A stretch of DNA of 64,000 bases, from assembly GCF_048403405.1 (NCBI RefSeq), contig NZ_CP183131.1; one strand, given 5' to 3'. Shown here one piece after another: positions 6,001-12,000 of this stretch. Every line of letters starts with the position of its first letter. Positions within the stretch are counted from its first letter, which is position 1. The position numbers are program-made. This DNA is from Escherichia coli (lineage in GTDB: Bacteria; Pseudomonadota; Gammaproteobacteria; Enterobacterales; Enterobacteriaceae).

Positions 6001-9000
6001 TGGTGGGCGTACCTTGTGCGCTTTCTTCTGGCATAAAAAAAGGCGCTGACGCGCCTATCTTTCTTTTCCCTGGGGGGTGGGAGATTCTGGTGGCTATCTC
6101 CCCTTACGTTGGGGTTCATCAATGATGTCGTGGTCGATCATGCCGTGCTTGATGGCCCGTAGCTCTGTCTGCTGCTTACGCTTGTTGGACGCCATCACCT
6201 GCTTCACGAAGTTCTCATGAGGCCTTATGACGTACCGCACGTCGATGACTCTGCGGCCATCCTTGATCTGGTTCGCGTCGTAGTCGCTTATGACCTCTTG
6301 TTTGATGAGGGCCTCCAGAGCGAGCTTCATGGCTCTGACGTTCTCCGGCATCCGTGGGCTCAATTCACGAGGGCTCTGGGTCAGGAAGCTGATAAGCGAT
6401 GGCGTGTACGGCGAATCTGGTGATGCTTGAGTCCAGTAGTGGCTCATTCGCTTGTAGATGTACCGTGCAAGAGGGGAGCGGATTTGCATTCCGATTTTGT
6501 AGTTGTACTGACGAAACGACAGATTCATGATCGATTCGTTTACCAGCGGGTTGAACTGCACATAGCACCTGGCGTTCCCGCCTTTCTTGCGAAACTCACC
6601 TCTGGTGGTCAGTCCCACCATCGGGAAGAAGCTGGAGCTGATGAAGGCTTCACCGTCATCACTGATACATTCGAGTGTTGCGCCACGACAAACCTGGATT
6701 GCTTCCTTGATTTCGTTCAGGTTGTACCCGTGACCCATCTTCGAGAGCTCTTTCTGGAGTTCGTACAGAGTGAACATGACTCCAGCCTTGCCCTCGATGA
6801 TATGGCCTTTCCCGTTCACTGCGAGCTTGCGTAGAGCATCCTCAAGGATTTCCTCTCGCTGTCCCGCGTAGATCAGCACGGTTCTTCCGTCATCCTTCTC
6901 GATGATGGCTGGCTTCACCTTCACCGTGAAATGCTGGCCTCTGATGGTGCATTGTCGTGTCACTACAGCGTTGGATAAATCTTCATGCTCACGCTTTTGG
7001 TCCCAAATGTACTTCGGCAGCGCATCGTAGATCTCGATGGTGTTGGAGTAGTCGTCTTTCTTGGCCGGAGATTCAATGATCTCAAACAGGCTCATTTGCG
7101 GTGAGTCTTTGATTACGTCGAGTTTCTCCAGGTCTTTGTCTTTGGTTCTCTTGCTCATGATTGTTCCGTCGATACTTTCTAGCTGGTGGTCCATGCCGCC
7201 AGCATTGTCAATGCTCCCGCTGCTACCGTCGCTGAAAACACTAGCTGGTAGATGCGACGCTTAGCCCCCGCAGTGCCGCTCATAAAACGCAGGGCTGCCG
7301 CTTCATATCGGAAATGAGCGAACTCACCCCGAAGGGTGCTATCTGTCCCCTGTGGCGATTGTGGGCGCTTTGACAGGGCAGGGCGAGGATGGCTGGCGAC
7401 TTTCTTGATCATCGCTTCACATTTCCCCAGTTTCGCCAATTCAGTGGCCGCTACAGATGCTGTCATGTTGTCACACCTCGTCGCTATGTGTCTTGTTTAG
7501 CTGGCGCTCGTACTCGTTTAGCGCCCGGCGAATTTTTGCTAAGGCAGTGGCGCGTTGTCTTAACACGGCATACCTGGTTTCAACTTGCTGGATCAACTCT
7601 TGTGCCCAGACAGGCTCTTTCTTGAAGTGCGACATGCTGTAGGCATGACCGCGACCCTTCTTGATATGTGTCGATAGAACCCTTTTCTTTTGTCCGGGAA
7701 CTTGTTCGACAAATCTGTTGCGATACCACTCTGCAACGAGTGATACGCCTAGAATGCGAACCCGTGTACCGACACGCCCTTGTTCGTCCTCTGACGCTTC
7801 TTCACGCGCTGATTTGTGCGCGTTCCAGTACATGTCCGCTTCCTGCTGCGCCTCGACAGCAAGAACCGCTAAGGCGTGATCCAGTTTGCTCCGTACCTCT
7901 GCAACAAACTCTCGTCCCTCTGCCTCTAGCAGATCCTCTGTTATCTCGGATCGTTCTTCTTCGAGCTTCGGATCTAGCAGATCTAGCCATCGCTCTGTTG
8001 GTAGACTCACCTCAATACCCTCCCAATTCCTATCCAATTCCTATCCACATAACTATCTATCTGGAATTTAAAGCTGATTATTCCAATACTGGAATCTAGT
8101 TCTGTCACTAGGCTAACCCATCTTTGGAATTTGTCAAATTTCCCTCTATCTATCTGGAATCTTGATGCTCTTATTCTTTCACAGCCTCTTTACATATGAA
8201 TCTATATTTAAAGATTCCAGATATATTGGATATGGCATCAAAGATTCCAAATGCCTCTTTACCACCGTCTCTCGATGCTGGAGGGCAAGCGGTTCTCGAT
8301 GCGAGGGTAAGGTCTGTTTATCTGAGCCTATCCGTGCAGCGTTCCCATAGGTTCCCTTACTCAACGATCAAAAAGCCACCGAAAAGCAACCTATATGCCC
8401 CTTTTGGGCAATTACACAGGCCATCTGTCCCCGCTTTTAGCCTTATTCTCTATCCAACACGCGGCAAGCAATCGAAAAGCAATCTAAAAGCAATCTTTGG
8501 AGGATTTCATGAGTCAATTTGTTCTGGGTTTGGATATTGGTTACTCCAACCTGAAAATGGCAATGGGGTATAAAGGTGAGGAAGCTCGCACAGTCGTCAT
8601 GCCGGTGGGGGCAGGTCCATTGGAACTGATGCCACAACAGTTAACTGGCGGTGCAGGGACCTGCATTCAGGTTGTGATTGATGGAGAGAAATGGGTTGCA
8701 GGCGTCGAGCCTGACCGATTGCAAGGATGGGAGCGTGAGCTTCACGGCGACTATCCTTCGACCAATCCATACAAGGCTCTTTTCTACGCTGCACTCCTGA
8801 TGTCCGAGCAGAAGGAGATCGATGTGCTGGTGACTGGCCTGCCTGTTAGTCAGTACATGGACGTAGAGCGCAGAGAGGCGTTGAAATCTCGGCTTGAGGG
8901 TGAACACCAGATCACGCCAAAACGATCGGTAGCGGTTAAGTCTGTCGTGGTTGTACCTCAACCTGCCGGTGCTTACATGGATGTTGTAAGTTCAACCAAA

Positions 9001-12000
9001 GATGAAGACCTCCTGGAGATTATCCAGGGAGGAAAAACCGTTGTAATTGACCCTGGGTTCTTTTCTGTAGACTGGGTAGCTCTTGAAGAGGGAGAGGTCC
9101 GCTATCACTCATCTGGCACCAGCCTCAAGGCGATGTCGGTGTTGCTACAGGAAACGGACCGGCTAATTCAGGAAGACCACGGCGGTGCCCCTGGCATCGA
9201 AAAGATCGAGAAAGCTATTCGTGCCGGTAAGGCCGAAATCTTCCTCTACGGTGAAAAGGTATCGATCAAAGACTACTTCAAGAAAGCCTCAACCAAAGTC
9301 GCTCAAAACGCCTTGATCCCTATGCGGAAGTCAATGCGTGAGGACGGGATGGATGCTGACGTAGTTCTGCTGGCTGGCGGCGGTGCCGAGGCTTACCAAG
9401 ATGCGGCCAAGGAGCTTTTCCCTAAGAGCAGGATCGTACTGCCCAACGAATCCGTGGCATCCAATGCCAGGGGCTTCTGGTTCTGCGGCTGATAGATAGG
9501 AGGTCGTTGTGGCTGGTAGCAAATGGGATGGAAAAATATCTAATCTGAACATATCGGAGCAAGCCTTTCCGGAGCTCTATCGTGAACTGTCCCAGATGCA
9601 GCATAAGGCGCGTAGTGATCGGCTCCGCGCCCTTGCTCTATTGGGTCTTTATTCTCTTCGATTTTCTGGCAACATTGGGTCTTTTGAGCAACAGAGTTCA
9701 GAGAGTCAACCTGCACAGCATCAAAATTCGCCAGTGCAGACTGACGCAAAACTGAACTCTCAACGTGATTCACTTAAAGGAAAACTGATGGGCTCCGTAT
9801 GACATGAAAGACCACGAGGAGTTCTCTACGCTATCAGCGGCTGAACGTAGAGAGTTAATAATCGCAGAGTTAAAGCGTAAAAGCCGCATTCGCACCCTGT
9901 TGCGAGGACTCCCGTTAGATGAAGTTCGGGAGATCATTGACAGAATGAAGGGCGTTCTCAATGAACTGGAGGAAGAGTACAAAAAGCGAGAAGAAGAAGA
10001 AAAAGAAAAGCGAGCTCAGGCTGAGCGAATAATGAGCGACATGGAATCCTGCGGTGTGGACATCGGCTTGCTCAACGAAATGTTCACGAGCAGATCAGAA
10101 CCTGATAATGCTAAATATTCAAAAGACGGAGTTTCGTGGAGTGGGCAAGGACGTCGCCCGGATGCTTTCAAGGGGTTGGGAGCTGTCGAGCTGGAGCGCT
10201 ACCGTATCCCACAGAAGAAGTAAAAAAATGAGCGCCGCAAAGTTTGGGCGCTCATCTTCTGGTCCGAAATGTCATAGTCTACTCAAGCACACTCTTTCTC
10301 CCCACCACCATGCCTTCCTTGTTCTTTGCAGAACGGACATTCAACGCAGGTTCTTTGATTAACAGAGGTGAAGTACGTACACTTGCAGTTGTCGCACACC
10401 TCCAGCATTGCGTCCCCACTTCTCAGCTCCGAAGCAAGACACCAGGCATCAGTAATATCAAACGGAGCCCACCGAGCACCTTTCATTCCGGGCACTTCTT
10501 TGCGGATTGCGTGATACATTCTAAATGCCTTGTTCAAGGCTTTGATGTTCACAGACCGCAACACGGCTTCTCCACCAATGTTGAAGTAGAGCTGCATTAG
10601 AAGAGAGGCCTGTATCTTGGATGTGTGACTATGAATCAGTGTCGCACCACCCCGGAAAGTTCTGGATTTTCGTTCCAGAGTATATCCGTCCCTCTCCAGA
10701 TCCTGGTAAAGCCGTCTGACCTGTTTGTAGGTCAGACCAGTCTCGATCATGATGATTTTTGTGATGTACCCAGCAAGGGCCATGTGTCGAGCTGTAACCC
10801 AGCGACCCAATGTACCAGAGTTGCCAATGTTCATCTCCACCTCCCACGTCCCTGTAGAGACTGTTGCAGTTTTTTCAATACCGGGTGTGTTAACTCTTCC
10901 CGGCTGTCATCGAGAATTTCTTCAATGATGCTCGGAGCAAAACGAAGCGTAAAATGCGTAACCGTTGTTCCAGACATGTGGCGCAACTGGCTGTCTGTTG
11001 CCTTAGCCACCAGCTCCGCAAGCTCTCTCGAAACCCCGAAAACTTCCTTTGCCATCTCCGGGTCTCTCGATGCGACGCGGTTAAATAGCAACCAGTAGGC
11101 AGCATCAAATTCATCAACACTATGGTTGATAAAAACTACAGGGTCGTAGTCGCCAGAGAGTCGCGTGATGATGTTCTGCTCTGCTGTTTCGAGTTTGAAA
11201 GAGATCAACACGCCAGAGGCCAGAGCTTCCAATTGGGAAGGTGTTGCCAGTGACAGCTTTTGAACGGTGTCCATGCCCAAAGAAAATTGTGAGGCCGCAT
11301 CATCTGGACGTTCTTTTGCCAGAGTGGATAGCAGGTTCCACAATGTCAGATCGAACTCGTAGACGTTTCTATCAGCTTCTTCTTGATCGAGGTTGACGGC
11401 TCTTGCATCCCACGCACCAATAATATCCAGTTCCAACATTCCGCCCCCCTCACAAATCACGAAGGTTGCGATAGATAGCCAAGACTCGGCTACCATAGTT
11501 TCTGGCTCGGATTTCGTCTTCCCAGGCGTGATAGCGGCCAACGCCAAGCTCCAAGTCATTTGGAGATGACTGAATGGCTTCTGATAGCACCTCTGCCCCA
11601 ACCATGACGTTGGTCTCTGGGTCGAGAAGATCTGCTGGAGAAGAAACTCTATGACCATTCCACCGGATGCTCACTTGCATAAACCCGACATCAATGGCAC
11701 GACCGTACTGCTGCTGAAACTCAGCGAGCTTAGCCTTTGCCTGATCTTCCGACTTAGCATAGAAAGGAAGCCCAGGAACGCGAAGCGTCCAAGGCCAAGG
11801 ACTTATAGAGCCATTACCTCTCCCTGATGCAGATTCGGCCAATGCGACCGAATACACTAGAAGAGGGTCGAGGTTATATGCTTTCGCTGCTTTGTCGAAG
11901 ATGGTTCCGCTCAGGTCAATAGCATTCGCTGTTGATGAAAGGAGAGCCGCAGACAGAACTAGCGCCTTGGCTTTGTTCTTCATCAGCTTGCCTCCTTATG

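What the first reader, a model, noticed from the sequence alone, without database searches (positions are those of the whole stretch)
8040..9802. ParM-type partition locus with two kinds of candidate centromere repeats
The actin-like ParM gene and a small downstream ORF are preceded by scattered TGGAAT/ATTCCA units and tandem CCTATCCAATT (8018-8250), and by three AAAAGCAATC direct repeats abutting the parM RBS (8463-8496). Which set is the centromere and whether the 97-aa downstream protein is the adaptor cannot be decided from sequence.
Basis: partly seen in the sequence, partly recalled or inferred. Interest (0 to 1): 0.35.

Follow-up and report, generated by a model that had tools for sequence, protein, structure and literature searches.

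The report
IncC plasmid ParM partition locus beside oriT

Summary
The window is IncC (IncA/C2) plasmid backbone; 965 plasmid records match at 99% or more.

The TGGAAT/ATTCCA units and the tandem CCTATCCAATT lie in or beside the experimentally mapped oriT. pR55 positions 1-330 are identical to window 8332-8003, so the fully active oriT is window 8010-8194. These repeats track mobI across relatives, not the small protein.

The AAAAGCAATC repeats are 11-bp iterons. There are five: two at 8371-8391 and three at 8464-8495. They flank the AcaCD activator box and the published AcaCD-dependent promoter P152. This is the split-parC layout of plasmid R1.

In relatives the iteron layout is kept. In one lineage with a diverged small protein the iteron sequence is replaced.

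The literature already calls the locus (vcrx152/vcrx151) "putative parMRC". Binding and stabilisation remain untested for IncC. This is an ordinary, known locus; only the parC assignment is a small addition.

The parts
7471..8010 (-). mobI (GTG start at 8010), an essential conjugative transfer factor; divergent from parM
   Evidence: Pfam MobI E=4e-31. RefSeq annotates mobI at the same coordinates.
8010..8194 (.). oriT of IncA/C plasmids (pR55 positions 139-323; core 227-300 = window 8033-8106). AT-rich, and overlaps the mobI promoter (-35 TTGACA at 8137-8132, TSS about 8103).
   Evidence: pR55 1-330 is 330/330 identical to the reverse complement of window 8003-8332. GC of R55 139-323 is 37.3%, as published. 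Deletion mapping is in PMC5587640.
8023..8047 (.). Two overlapping 14-bp direct repeats CCAATTCCTATCCA (R55 286-299 and 297-310). Deleting both abolished transfer in R55 subclones.
8053..8249 (.). oriT-family repeats CTATCTATCTGGAAT (8053-8067 and 8146-8160 direct; 8211-8226 inverted), plus further TGGAAT/ATTCCA cores at 8080, 8090, 8125 and 8244. The last two cores (8214, 8244) lie outside the minimal fully active oriT.
   Evidence: CTATCTATCTGG is conserved next to mobI in distant relatives.
8333..8350 (+). Orphan RepA iteron CGTGCAGCGTTCCCATAG, lying between oriT and the distal iterons. Not part of the par system as far as I can tell.
   Evidence: Perfect match to the oriV iteron consensus; 15 matches in the window against 0.58 expected. 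Conserved in IncA and in an IncC variant.
8371..8391 (+). Distal parC candidate: two 11-bp-phased iterons, AAAAGCCACC and AAAAGCAACC, abutting the AcaCD box
   Evidence: Conserved in IncA, an IncC variant, pAQU-type plasmids, L036 and L037.
8392..8420 (+). AcaCD activator box (TATATGCCCCTTTTGGGCAATTACACAG) of promoter P152
   Evidence: Matches the TGCCC-N5-GGGCA register of the published AcaCD boxes. The ChIP-exo motif and a TSS 35-37 nt downstream are given for vcrx152 in Table S3 of PMC4207636. Invariant in alignment A3.
8444..8457 (+). P152 core: -10 TATTCT at 8444-8449 and inferred TSS at about 8454-8457
   Evidence: Position inferred from the published motif-to-TSS distance. TATTCT is conserved in relatives. 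No consensus sigma-70 promoter is found here, as expected for an activator-dependent promoter.
8464..8495 (+). Proximal parC candidate: three 11-bp-phased iterons (GCAAGCAATC, AAAAGCAATC, AAAAGCAATC) in the 5' leader, ending 3 nt before the SD GGAGG (8499-8503)
8509..9492 (+). parM-like actin-type ATPase (vcrx152 / R55_180 / 'stbA'), 327 aa
   Evidence: Pfam ALP_N E=2e-33. 58% identity to SrpM of an SXT/R391-type ICE, E=5e-143. Phosphate-1 DIGYSNLK, phosphate-2 DPGFFSVD and adenosine AGGGA motifs can be read directly in the sequence.
9509..9802 (+). parR/srpR-like adaptor (vcrx151), 97 aa. It has an N-terminal ribbon-helix-helix domain (about residues 9-53), a variable disordered linker (54-77) and a conserved C-terminal helix (78-96).
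9804..10223 (+). acr2, an H-NS-like repressor of acaDC. It is adjacent, but reported to be constitutive and probably not driven by P152.
   Evidence: Pfam Histone_HNS_N E=3e-12; PMC4207636.

Best explanation
The region is the mobI-oriT-parC-parM-parR module of an IncC plasmid.

**Upstream repeats.** The TGGAAT/CTATCTATCTGGAAT repeats and the CCAATTCCTATCCA tandem are relaxosome-side elements of oriT and also carry the mobI promoter. They are not the centromere.

**Centromere.** The centromere (parC) is most likely the five 11-bp iterons AAAAGCMAYC. They are split into a distal pair (8371-8391) and a proximal triplet (8464-8495). The two groups bracket the AcaCD box and the core of promoter P152.

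**Proposed mechanism.**
1. When the master activator AcaCD is made, P152 fires and produces ParM (Vcrx152) and the 97-aa ParR/SrpR-like protein (Vcrx151).
2. Vcrx151 dimers insert their ribbon-helix-helix beta-ribbon into successive iterons, one per helical turn, and build a segrosome.
3. The conserved C-terminal helix of Vcrx151 captures the growing ends of ParM filaments, which push sister plasmids apart.
4. Occupying iterons on both sides of the promoter probably also feeds back negatively on P152, as in R1.

**Role.** The system is accessory to the essential ParABS system. It is co-expressed with the transfer genes.

**Shown versus inferred.**
- Shown in the literature: the oriT limits, the AcaCD dependence of P152, and SrpR-srpC binding and stabilisation for the SXT/R391 orthologue.
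- Shown here: sequence identity to oriT, the 2+3 iteron architecture and its conservation and covariation, homology to SrpM and SrpR, and the ParR-like predicted fold.
- Inferred: Vcrx151-iteron binding, ParM polymerisation, autoregulation and the stabilising effect in IncC.
For: **Identity of the region**
- IncC backbone: 965 plasmid records at 99% or more, annotated mobI / ParM-StbA / hypothetical / H-NS.

**oriT**
- pR55 1-330 is identical to window 8332-8003, and the published deletion mapping applies directly.
- CTATCTATCTGG next to mobI persists in lineages whose parM-proximal iterons differ.
- In the SXT/R391 orthologue, SrpR binds srpC specifically and oriT only non-specifically.

**Iterons**
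- 4 of the window's 5 exact motif hits are here, with exact 11-bp phasing.
- The 2+3 split surrounds the AcaCD box and the published TSS.
- They are conserved in IncA, an IncC variant, pAQU-type plasmids, L036 and L037, while the flanking sequence diverges.
- L038 keeps a 2+3, 11-bp-phased layout around the box, but with the sequence GAGTCCC. Its ParR-like protein has a different putative strand, KFSNLKIS instead of KISNLNIS.
- Plasmid pF061_2 has two pairs of 11-bp TTGTCGATGNT repeats.
- Type II parC is defined as tandem repeats upstream of the operon. They can be continuous, or split with the promoter in the middle (PMC5016525).

**Proteins**
- ParM: ALP_N E=2e-33; 58% identical to SrpM.
- Vcrx151 against SrpR: E=1e-8, aligned over both the N-terminal domain and the C-terminal motif.
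- The Vcrx151 family comprises 127 clusters with the same three-part architecture.
- AF2 model: pLDDT is about 90 for residues 11-50.

**Synteny and regulation**
- The order mobI | intergenic region | parM | small ORF is the same in the 17 relatives with a readable locus, down to 35% ParM identity.
- P152 is AcaCD-dependent and the vcrx152-151 operon is induced about 10-fold.
Against: - There are no binding, polymerisation or stabilisation data for the IncC proteins. The papers I could read still call the system "putative" in 2021 and 2024.
- No Pfam or PDB sequence match exists for the 97-aa protein.
- Five iterons is few compared with the ten of R1.
- The SXT srpC repeats differ in both sequence and arrangement: 13-bp units, direct and inverted.
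- As cited in PMC10954446, a transposon screen did not find the locus to be non-mutable. Complete IncC plasmids with parM interrupted by ISVpa4 also exist. Any stabilising role is therefore dispensable.
- The covariation argument rests on a handful of lineages inspected by eye.
Confidence: 0.75

Rival explanations
1. The oriT-side repeats (TGGAAT/CTATCTATCTGGAAT, CCAATTCCTATCCA) are the centromere, or a second centromere, bound by the 97-aa protein. The AAAAGCAATC repeats would then be only an operator, or would be irrelevant.
For: The oriT-side repeats are numerous, strongly clustered and conserved. Two copies (8214, 8244) lie outside the minimal oriT and have no assigned role. SrpR shows some affinity for oriT DNA, though it is competed away.
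Against: - The region is the functionally mapped oriT and mobI promoter.
- The repeats stay the same in lineages with very different ParR-like proteins and different parM-proximal iterons.
- SrpR binding to oriT was non-specific.
- The units are irregularly spaced and mixed in orientation, unlike the ParR iteron arrays described for type II systems.
Confidence: 0.05
2. The locus is a ParM/ParR-type machine, but its main job is in conjugation rather than vertical partition. It might position or activate the neighbouring oriT-relaxosome, or handle DNA made during transfer. The iterons would be its loading and operator site.
For: - Expression depends on the conjugation master activator AcaCD.
- The module is physically fused to mobI-oriT in the 17 relatives with a readable locus.
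- The locus was not found to be non-mutable, and natural parM::IS plasmids persist.
- Deleting srpM or srpR lowered R391 transfer 4- to 14-fold.
- The title and abstract of a held paper report that the R1 partition proteins enhance conjugative DNA transfer (PMC4949242, listed; I did not open the paper).
Against: - The SXT/R391 orthologue does stabilise a sop-deleted mini-F about 2-fold. That effect requires srpM, srpR and srpC.
- The transfer effects reported for srp mutants are small.
- There are no IncC data either way.
Confidence: 0.15
3. The AAAAGCMAYC repeats are bound by another factor (the H-NS-like Acr2, RepA or a host protein), or they act in the mRNA leader, and are unrelated to the 97-aa protein.
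For: The repeats are A-rich, which could suit an H-NS-type protein. The proximal three are transcribed as part of the 5' leader (and sequence). A RepA iteron lies nearby at 8333.
Against: - pAQU-type plasmids keep the iterons but have no H-NS gene downstream of the parR-like gene.
- The RepA iteron consensus is unrelated in sequence.
- The distal pair lies upstream of the TSS, so it cannot act in the RNA.
- The iteron sequence changes in a lineage with a diverged ParR-like protein, while the layout is kept.
Confidence: 0.05

Closest known systems
SrpMRC of SXT/R391 integrative conjugative elements (Carraro et al. 2015, PMC4489591)
   Same: - ParM is 58% identical to SrpM, and the 97-aa protein is homologous to SrpR (E=1e-8).
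- The order mobI - oriT - centromere - parM - parR is identical.
- The promoter depends on an FlhDC-like master activator: SetCD in SXT/R391 and AcaCD in IncC.
- The centromere repeats reach the parM ribosome-binding site.
   Different: - The srpC repeats are four 13-bp units in direct and inverted pairs built around AAGTGC. The IncC iterons are five direct 11-bp units, AAAAGCMAYC.
- The gene after the adaptor is int in the ICEs and acr2 in IncC.
- IncC also has an essential ParABS system.
- The IncC proteins have not been tested biochemically.
ParMRC (parA / stb locus) of plasmid R1
   Same: - It has an actin-like ATPase and a small ribbon-helix-helix adaptor encoded downstream.
- parC is made of 11-bp tandem iterons split into two blocks, with the operon promoter between them. 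This gives both centromere function and autorepression.
- The adaptor's C-terminal tail is the part that contacts ParM.
   Different: - There is no detectable sequence similarity between Vcrx151 and the solved ParR proteins.
- IncC has 2+3 iterons; R1 has two blocks of five (that number is from my memory of the literature and was not retrieved here).
- The IncC promoter is activator-dependent and carries an AcaCD box between the iteron blocks.
- The IncC locus abuts oriT.
ParR of pSK41 (PDB 2q2k) and ParR of pB171 (PDB 2jd3)
oriT of IncA/C plasmids as mapped in R55/R16a (Hegyi et al. 2017, PMC5587640)
   Same: The sequence is 100% identical. The 14-bp overlapping direct repeats, the 6-bp inverted repeats (TGGAAT/ATTCCA) and the mobI promoter all fall at the published coordinates.
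   Different: Nothing differs. This part of the finding is that element. Its nick site and the proteins that bind the repeats are still unknown.

Membership tests
Type II (ParMRC) plasmid partition system | Actin-like (ParM/ALP) ATPase | tested here: met
   Pfam ALP_N E=2e-33 and MreB-like_C E=2e-10, both above the gathering scores. The phosphate-1, phosphate-2 and adenosine motifs can be read in the sequence.
Type II (ParMRC) plasmid partition system | Small adaptor encoded immediately downstream, with an N-terminal ribbon-helix-helix DNA-binding domain and a C-terminal motor-binding tail | tested here: met
Type II (ParMRC) plasmid partition system | Centromere of tandem repeats upstream of the operon, continuous or split around the promoter | tested here: met
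   Five 11-bp-phased iterons in a 2+3 arrangement bracket the AcaCD box and the P152 core. The definition is taken from PMC5016525.
Type II (ParMRC) plasmid partition system | The adaptor binds the repeats specifically; ParM polymerises; the locus stabilises an unstable replicon | not testable with these tools
   These have been shown only for the SXT/R391 orthologue. The IncC system is still called putative.
SrpMRC-type subfamily (MOBH elements: SXT/R391, IncA/C, pAQU and others) | Orthology of both proteins to SrpM and SrpR | tested here: met
   ParM against SrpM: 58% identity, E=5e-143. Vcrx151 against SrpR: 29% identity, E=1e-8, over the N-terminal domain and the C-terminal motif.
SrpMRC-type subfamily (MOBH elements: SXT/R391, IncA/C, pAQU and others) | Synteny mobI(-) - oriT - centromere - parM(+) - parR(+), and a promoter driven by an FlhDC-like activator | tested here: met
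   The synteny holds in the window and in the 17 relatives with a readable locus. The AcaCD box is present in the sequence, and AcaCD dependence is published.
SrpMRC-type subfamily (MOBH elements: SXT/R391, IncA/C, pAQU and others) | srpC-type repeats (13 bp, direct plus inverted, AAGTGC core) | tested here: not met
   The IncC repeats are direct 11-bp AAAAGCMAYC units, with no AAGTGC-type units. This fits lineage-specific centromere specificity and does not argue against relatedness.
IncA/C oriT (for the TGGAAT / CCTATCCAATT repeats) | Sequence identity to the functionally mapped 139-323 segment of pR55, including the 14-bp direct repeats and the 6-bp inverted repeats | tested here: met
   330/330 identity. 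The direct repeats are at R55 286-299 and 297-310, and GC is 37.3%, as described in PMC5587640.

The most novel reading that the evidence does not exclude
The partition machine of MOBH elements may be an integral part of the conjugation module rather than a housekeeping stabiliser.

Three observations point this way:
- The ParR-iteron segrosome is assembled about 180 bp from oriT.
- It is switched on only by the transfer master activator.
- It stays fused to mobI-oriT down to 35% ParM identity.

It could position or license the relaxosome, or it could segregate the copies made by transfer-associated replication. The orphan RepA iteron between oriT and parC could add a link to replication control.
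Probability: 0.2. Interest if true: 0.55.

Novelty: already known. Interest (0 to 1): 0.15.

Why it matters
IncC plasmids are major carriers of multidrug resistance, and their maintenance functions are possible targets for plasmid curing. The locus itself is already on record. What this analysis adds is a concrete, testable proposal for where the IncC parC lies: five named iterons around P152. It also gives a clear reason to exclude the oriT repeats. Beyond that, it shows that the ParR-like adaptor family (127 clusters, no Pfam entry) shares one architecture and has lineage-specific iterons. The tight coupling of oriT, an activator-dependent promoter and a type II centromere across MOBH elements is worth noting, but it has already been remarked on in the literature.

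Tried and rejected
- **Sequence searches with the 97-aa protein and its family profiles.** Searches against Pfam and against PDB sequences gave nothing meaningful.
- **ParM against PDB sequences.** There was no hit at E<=0.01, so the family assignment rests on Pfam and on SrpM.
- **Sigma-70 consensus scan.** It found no promoter upstream of parM. This agrees with activator dependence but gives no independent TSS.
- **Cluster-member look-up of ten distant homologues.** It returned no names or organisms. SrpR was instead identified through the cloning and EMSA oligonucleotides in the supplement of PMC4489591 and a DNA scan of genomes.
- **Hancock et al. 2017 (the transposon screen).** The paper is not held, so its result is quoted second-hand from PMC10954446.
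- **Inverted iteron-like element.** An inverted CTAAAAGC at 8433-8440 inside the promoter spacer looked like a possible sixth iteron. I rejected it because it is not conserved in IncA or in the IncC variant.
- **Acr2 as the iteron-binding protein.** I rejected this because pAQU-type plasmids keep the iterons without the gene.

Full report
**What the window is.** The 2.9 kb around the finding matches 1047 plasmid records, 965 of them at 99% identity or more. They are typed IncC, MOBH and MPF_F, and come from Klebsiella, Salmonella, Escherichia, Vibrio and other genera. The RefSeq annotation of an identical plasmid gives this gene order:
- repA (6094-7194, -)
- a 95-aa ORF
- mobI (7471-8010, -, GTG start)
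- a 498-bp intergenic region
- a ParM/StbA-family gene (8509-9492, +)
- a 97-aa hypothetical protein (9509-9802, +)
- the H-NS-like acr2 (9804-10223, +)
- convergent with these, acaC, acaD, a transglycosylase gene and acr1

So this is the well-studied regulatory and oriT corner of the IncC backbone.

**Checking the observation.**
- Seven of the window's 41 TGGAAT/ATTCCA hexamers fall within 188 bp (8062-8249). None of 20000 random placements gave 7 in 200 bp.
- The 11-bp tandem is 2.3 copies at 8023-8047.
- The three repeats in front of the ParM ribosome-binding site are at 8464, 8475 and 8486, exactly 11 bp apart. The first is imperfect.
With the degenerate motif AAAAGCMAYC there are only five hits on both strands of the 64 kb, and four are here.
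- The upstream set is better described by a longer unit, CTATCTATCTGGAAT, with two direct copies and one inverted copy.

**The upstream repeats are oriT.** Hegyi et al. (PMC5587640) mapped the single oriT of IncA/C plasmids by deletion analysis of pR55. The fully active oriT is R55 139-323, immediately upstream of mobI. It is AT-rich (37% GC) and full of short inverted repeats. It also contains two partially overlapping 14-bp direct repeats, and removing both abolishes transfer. The core is 227-300, and the mobI promoter lies inside it.

I fetched pR55 and found that positions 1-330 are 330/330 identical to the reverse complement of window 8003-8332. The GC content of 139-323 is 37.3%. This gives the following map:
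- oriT is window 8010-8194.
- The 14-bp repeats are CCAATTCCTATCCA at 8023-8036 and 8034-8047.
- Five of the seven TGGAAT/ATTCCA cores lie inside oriT.
- The other two (8214, 8244) sit just outside it. Of these, only 8214 lies in the segment (R55 97-139) whose deletion left mobilisation unaffected.
- The published -35 TTGACA and the TSS 93 nt upstream of the GTG also fall where expected (8137-8132 and about 8103).

**The parM-proximal repeats bracket a known promoter.** Carraro et al. (PMC4207636) showed that P152, the promoter of vcrx152 (this parM), is silent without the master activator AcaCD and is switched on by AcaCD alone. Their Table S3 lists a ChIP-exo peak, an AcaCD motif, a TSS 35-37 nt downstream of the motif, an operon vcrx152-vcrx151, and about 10-fold induction.

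The published AcaCD boxes share a TGCCC-N5-GGGCA register. The window has TATATGCCCCTTTTGGGCAATTACACAG at 8392-8419, in exactly that register. This places the TSS near 8455, behind a conserved TATTCT (8444-8449).

The distal iteron pair (8371-8391) therefore abuts the activator box. The proximal triplet (8464-8495) lies between the TSS and the Shine-Dalgarno sequence. No consensus sigma-70 promoter is found here, which fits activator dependence.

Tandem repeats upstream of the operon define a type II parC. They can be continuous as in pSK41, or split in two with the promoter in the middle as in R1. In the split form, ParR binding both builds the segrosome and represses the promoter (PMC5016525).

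**Comparative test.** I fetched the locus from relatives with 97% down to 35% ParM identity: IncA, an IncC variant, pAQU-type Vibrio plasmids, and Methylomonas, Pseudomonas, Xanthomonas and Providencia plasmids. I also fetched eight contigs found through homologues of the 97-aa protein, and an SXT/R391-type ICE. All but one have the order mobI(-) | intergenic region | parM(+) | small ORF(+). The exception, L042, is a 1.5-kb fragment too short to show it.

Iteron conservation:
- In IncA, the IncC variant, pAQU-type plasmids, L036 and L037, the AAAAGC-type iterons are retained on both sides of a conserved activator box. The sequence between and around them diverges.

Iteron replacement:
- In L038 the ParR-like protein has a different putative DNA-reading strand (KFSNLKIS instead of KISNLNIS). 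The same geometry is present there: two repeats abutting the box and three before the SD, all 11-bp phased. The unit, however, is (T)GAGTCCC(T).
- A P. aeruginosa plasmid has two pairs of 11-bp TTGTCGATGNT repeats.
- L043 has yet another unit flanking the box.

oriT-side conservation:
- By contrast, the mobI-proximal CTATCTATCTGG element stays the same in almost all of these lineages, including those whose parM-proximal repeats have changed.

So the oriT-side repeats follow mobI, and the parM-side iterons follow the small protein. That is what is expected if the latter are its binding sites. This covariation rests on a few lineages read by eye, so it is suggestive, not proof.

**The proteins.**

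ParM:
- It hits Pfam ALP_N (E=2e-33) and MreB-like_C.
- It shows the actin-fold nucleotide-binding motifs.
- It is 58% identical over its full length to SrpM of an SXT/R391-type ICE.

The 97-aa protein:
- It has no Pfam or PDB sequence match.
- It belongs to a family of 127 clusters at 50% identity.
- Alignments show a conserved N-terminal block, a variable low-complexity linker and a conserved C-terminal motif with invariant L89, K90, L93 and S96.
- It aligns to SrpR at E=1e-8 over both conserved parts. I identified SrpR from the cloning primers of PMC4489591.
- With a 53-sequence alignment, AlphaFold2 gives an extended N-terminal segment, helices 21-28 and 32-53 at pLDDT about 90, a disordered stretch 54-77 and a helix 78-96.
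- The scores are modest, as expected for a 45-residue domain modelled as a monomer. The ranking is still specific.

A ribbon-helix-helix domain, a flexible linker and a conserved tail is the ParR plan.

**What is known for the orthologue.** In R391/SXT, srpM, srpR and the upstream srpC are each required for a roughly 2-fold stabilisation of a sop-deleted mini-F. SrpR binds the 251-bp srpC fragment specifically, and binds oriT only in a way that competitor DNA removes. Pairs of 13-bp repeats are needed for binding. Deleting srpM or srpR lowers transfer 4- to 14-fold.

In the SXT-type locus I fetched, the R4-R2 repeats overlap the srpM Shine-Dalgarno sequence, and R3-R1 lie about 45 bp upstream. 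So the centromere sits in the same place as the IncC iterons, although its sequence and its mix of repeat orientations differ.

[quoted passage not shown] Papers from 2021 and 2024 repeat this, and add that the locus was not among the non-mutable maintenance genes, unlike parAB and 053. I found no paper in the held library that defines the IncC parC. The primary transposon-screen paper is not held.

The locus is therefore known. The explicit 2+3 iteron assignment, the exclusion of the oriT repeats, and the family-wide view of the adaptor are small additions.

**Verdict.** The best explanation is a type II partition system of the SrpMRC subfamily. It is co-expressed with the transfer genes, and its split 11-bp-iteron parC surrounds P152. 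My confidence is about 0.75. The remaining doubt concerns function in IncC, which nobody has tested, and the possibility that the system mainly serves conjugation. Interest is low, because this is a known element on a heavily studied plasmid.

Noticed in passing
window 8333-8350 (also 3239-3256 + and 4176-4193 -): There are orphan copies of the RepA (IncA/C) iteron CGTGCARCGTWCCCAYAK outside the oriV array (12 copies at 5214-5972). The copy at 8333 is a perfect match and lies between oriT and the distal parC iterons. It is conserved in IncA and in an IncC variant although its flanks diverge, and it is absent from pAQU-type plasmids, which have a different replicon. It could be a RepA handcuffing or regulatory site.
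   Followed up: partly
L044 (NZ_OY979118.1; also NZ_OY979224.1), corresponding to window about 9250: Two complete Providencia stuartii IncC plasmids carry parM interrupted by an IS3-family element, ISVpa4. These are natural knock-outs and show that the ParM system is dispensable for persistence of the plasmid in clinical isolates.
   Followed up: partly
window 8214-8219 and 8244-8249: Two AAGATTCCA units, 30 bp apart, lie outside the minimal fully active oriT. The one at 8214 is in R55 97-139, a segment dispensable for mobilisation. Both are nevertheless conserved in IncA and in the IncC variant while the surrounding sequence diverges. The first forms a 16-nt, 94% complementary inverted repeat with 8148-8163. 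No role is known.
   Followed up: partly
window 9800-9806: The acr2 ATG (9804) follows the stop codon of the 97-aa gene by one base, which suggests translational coupling. Yet RNA-seq in PMC4207636 reports acr2 as constitutive and probably not driven by P152. That implies an internal promoter inside parM or the 97-aa gene, which I did not locate.
   Followed up: no
L008, L011 and L043, compared with the window: The gene downstream of the parR-like ORF varies between lineages. It is acr2 (H-NS-like) in IncA/C-like elements, int in SXT/R391, a transglycosylase gene in Pseudomonas and Providencia plasmids, and nothing in pAQU-type plasmids. The mobI-oriT-parC-parMR core stays fixed.
   Followed up: no
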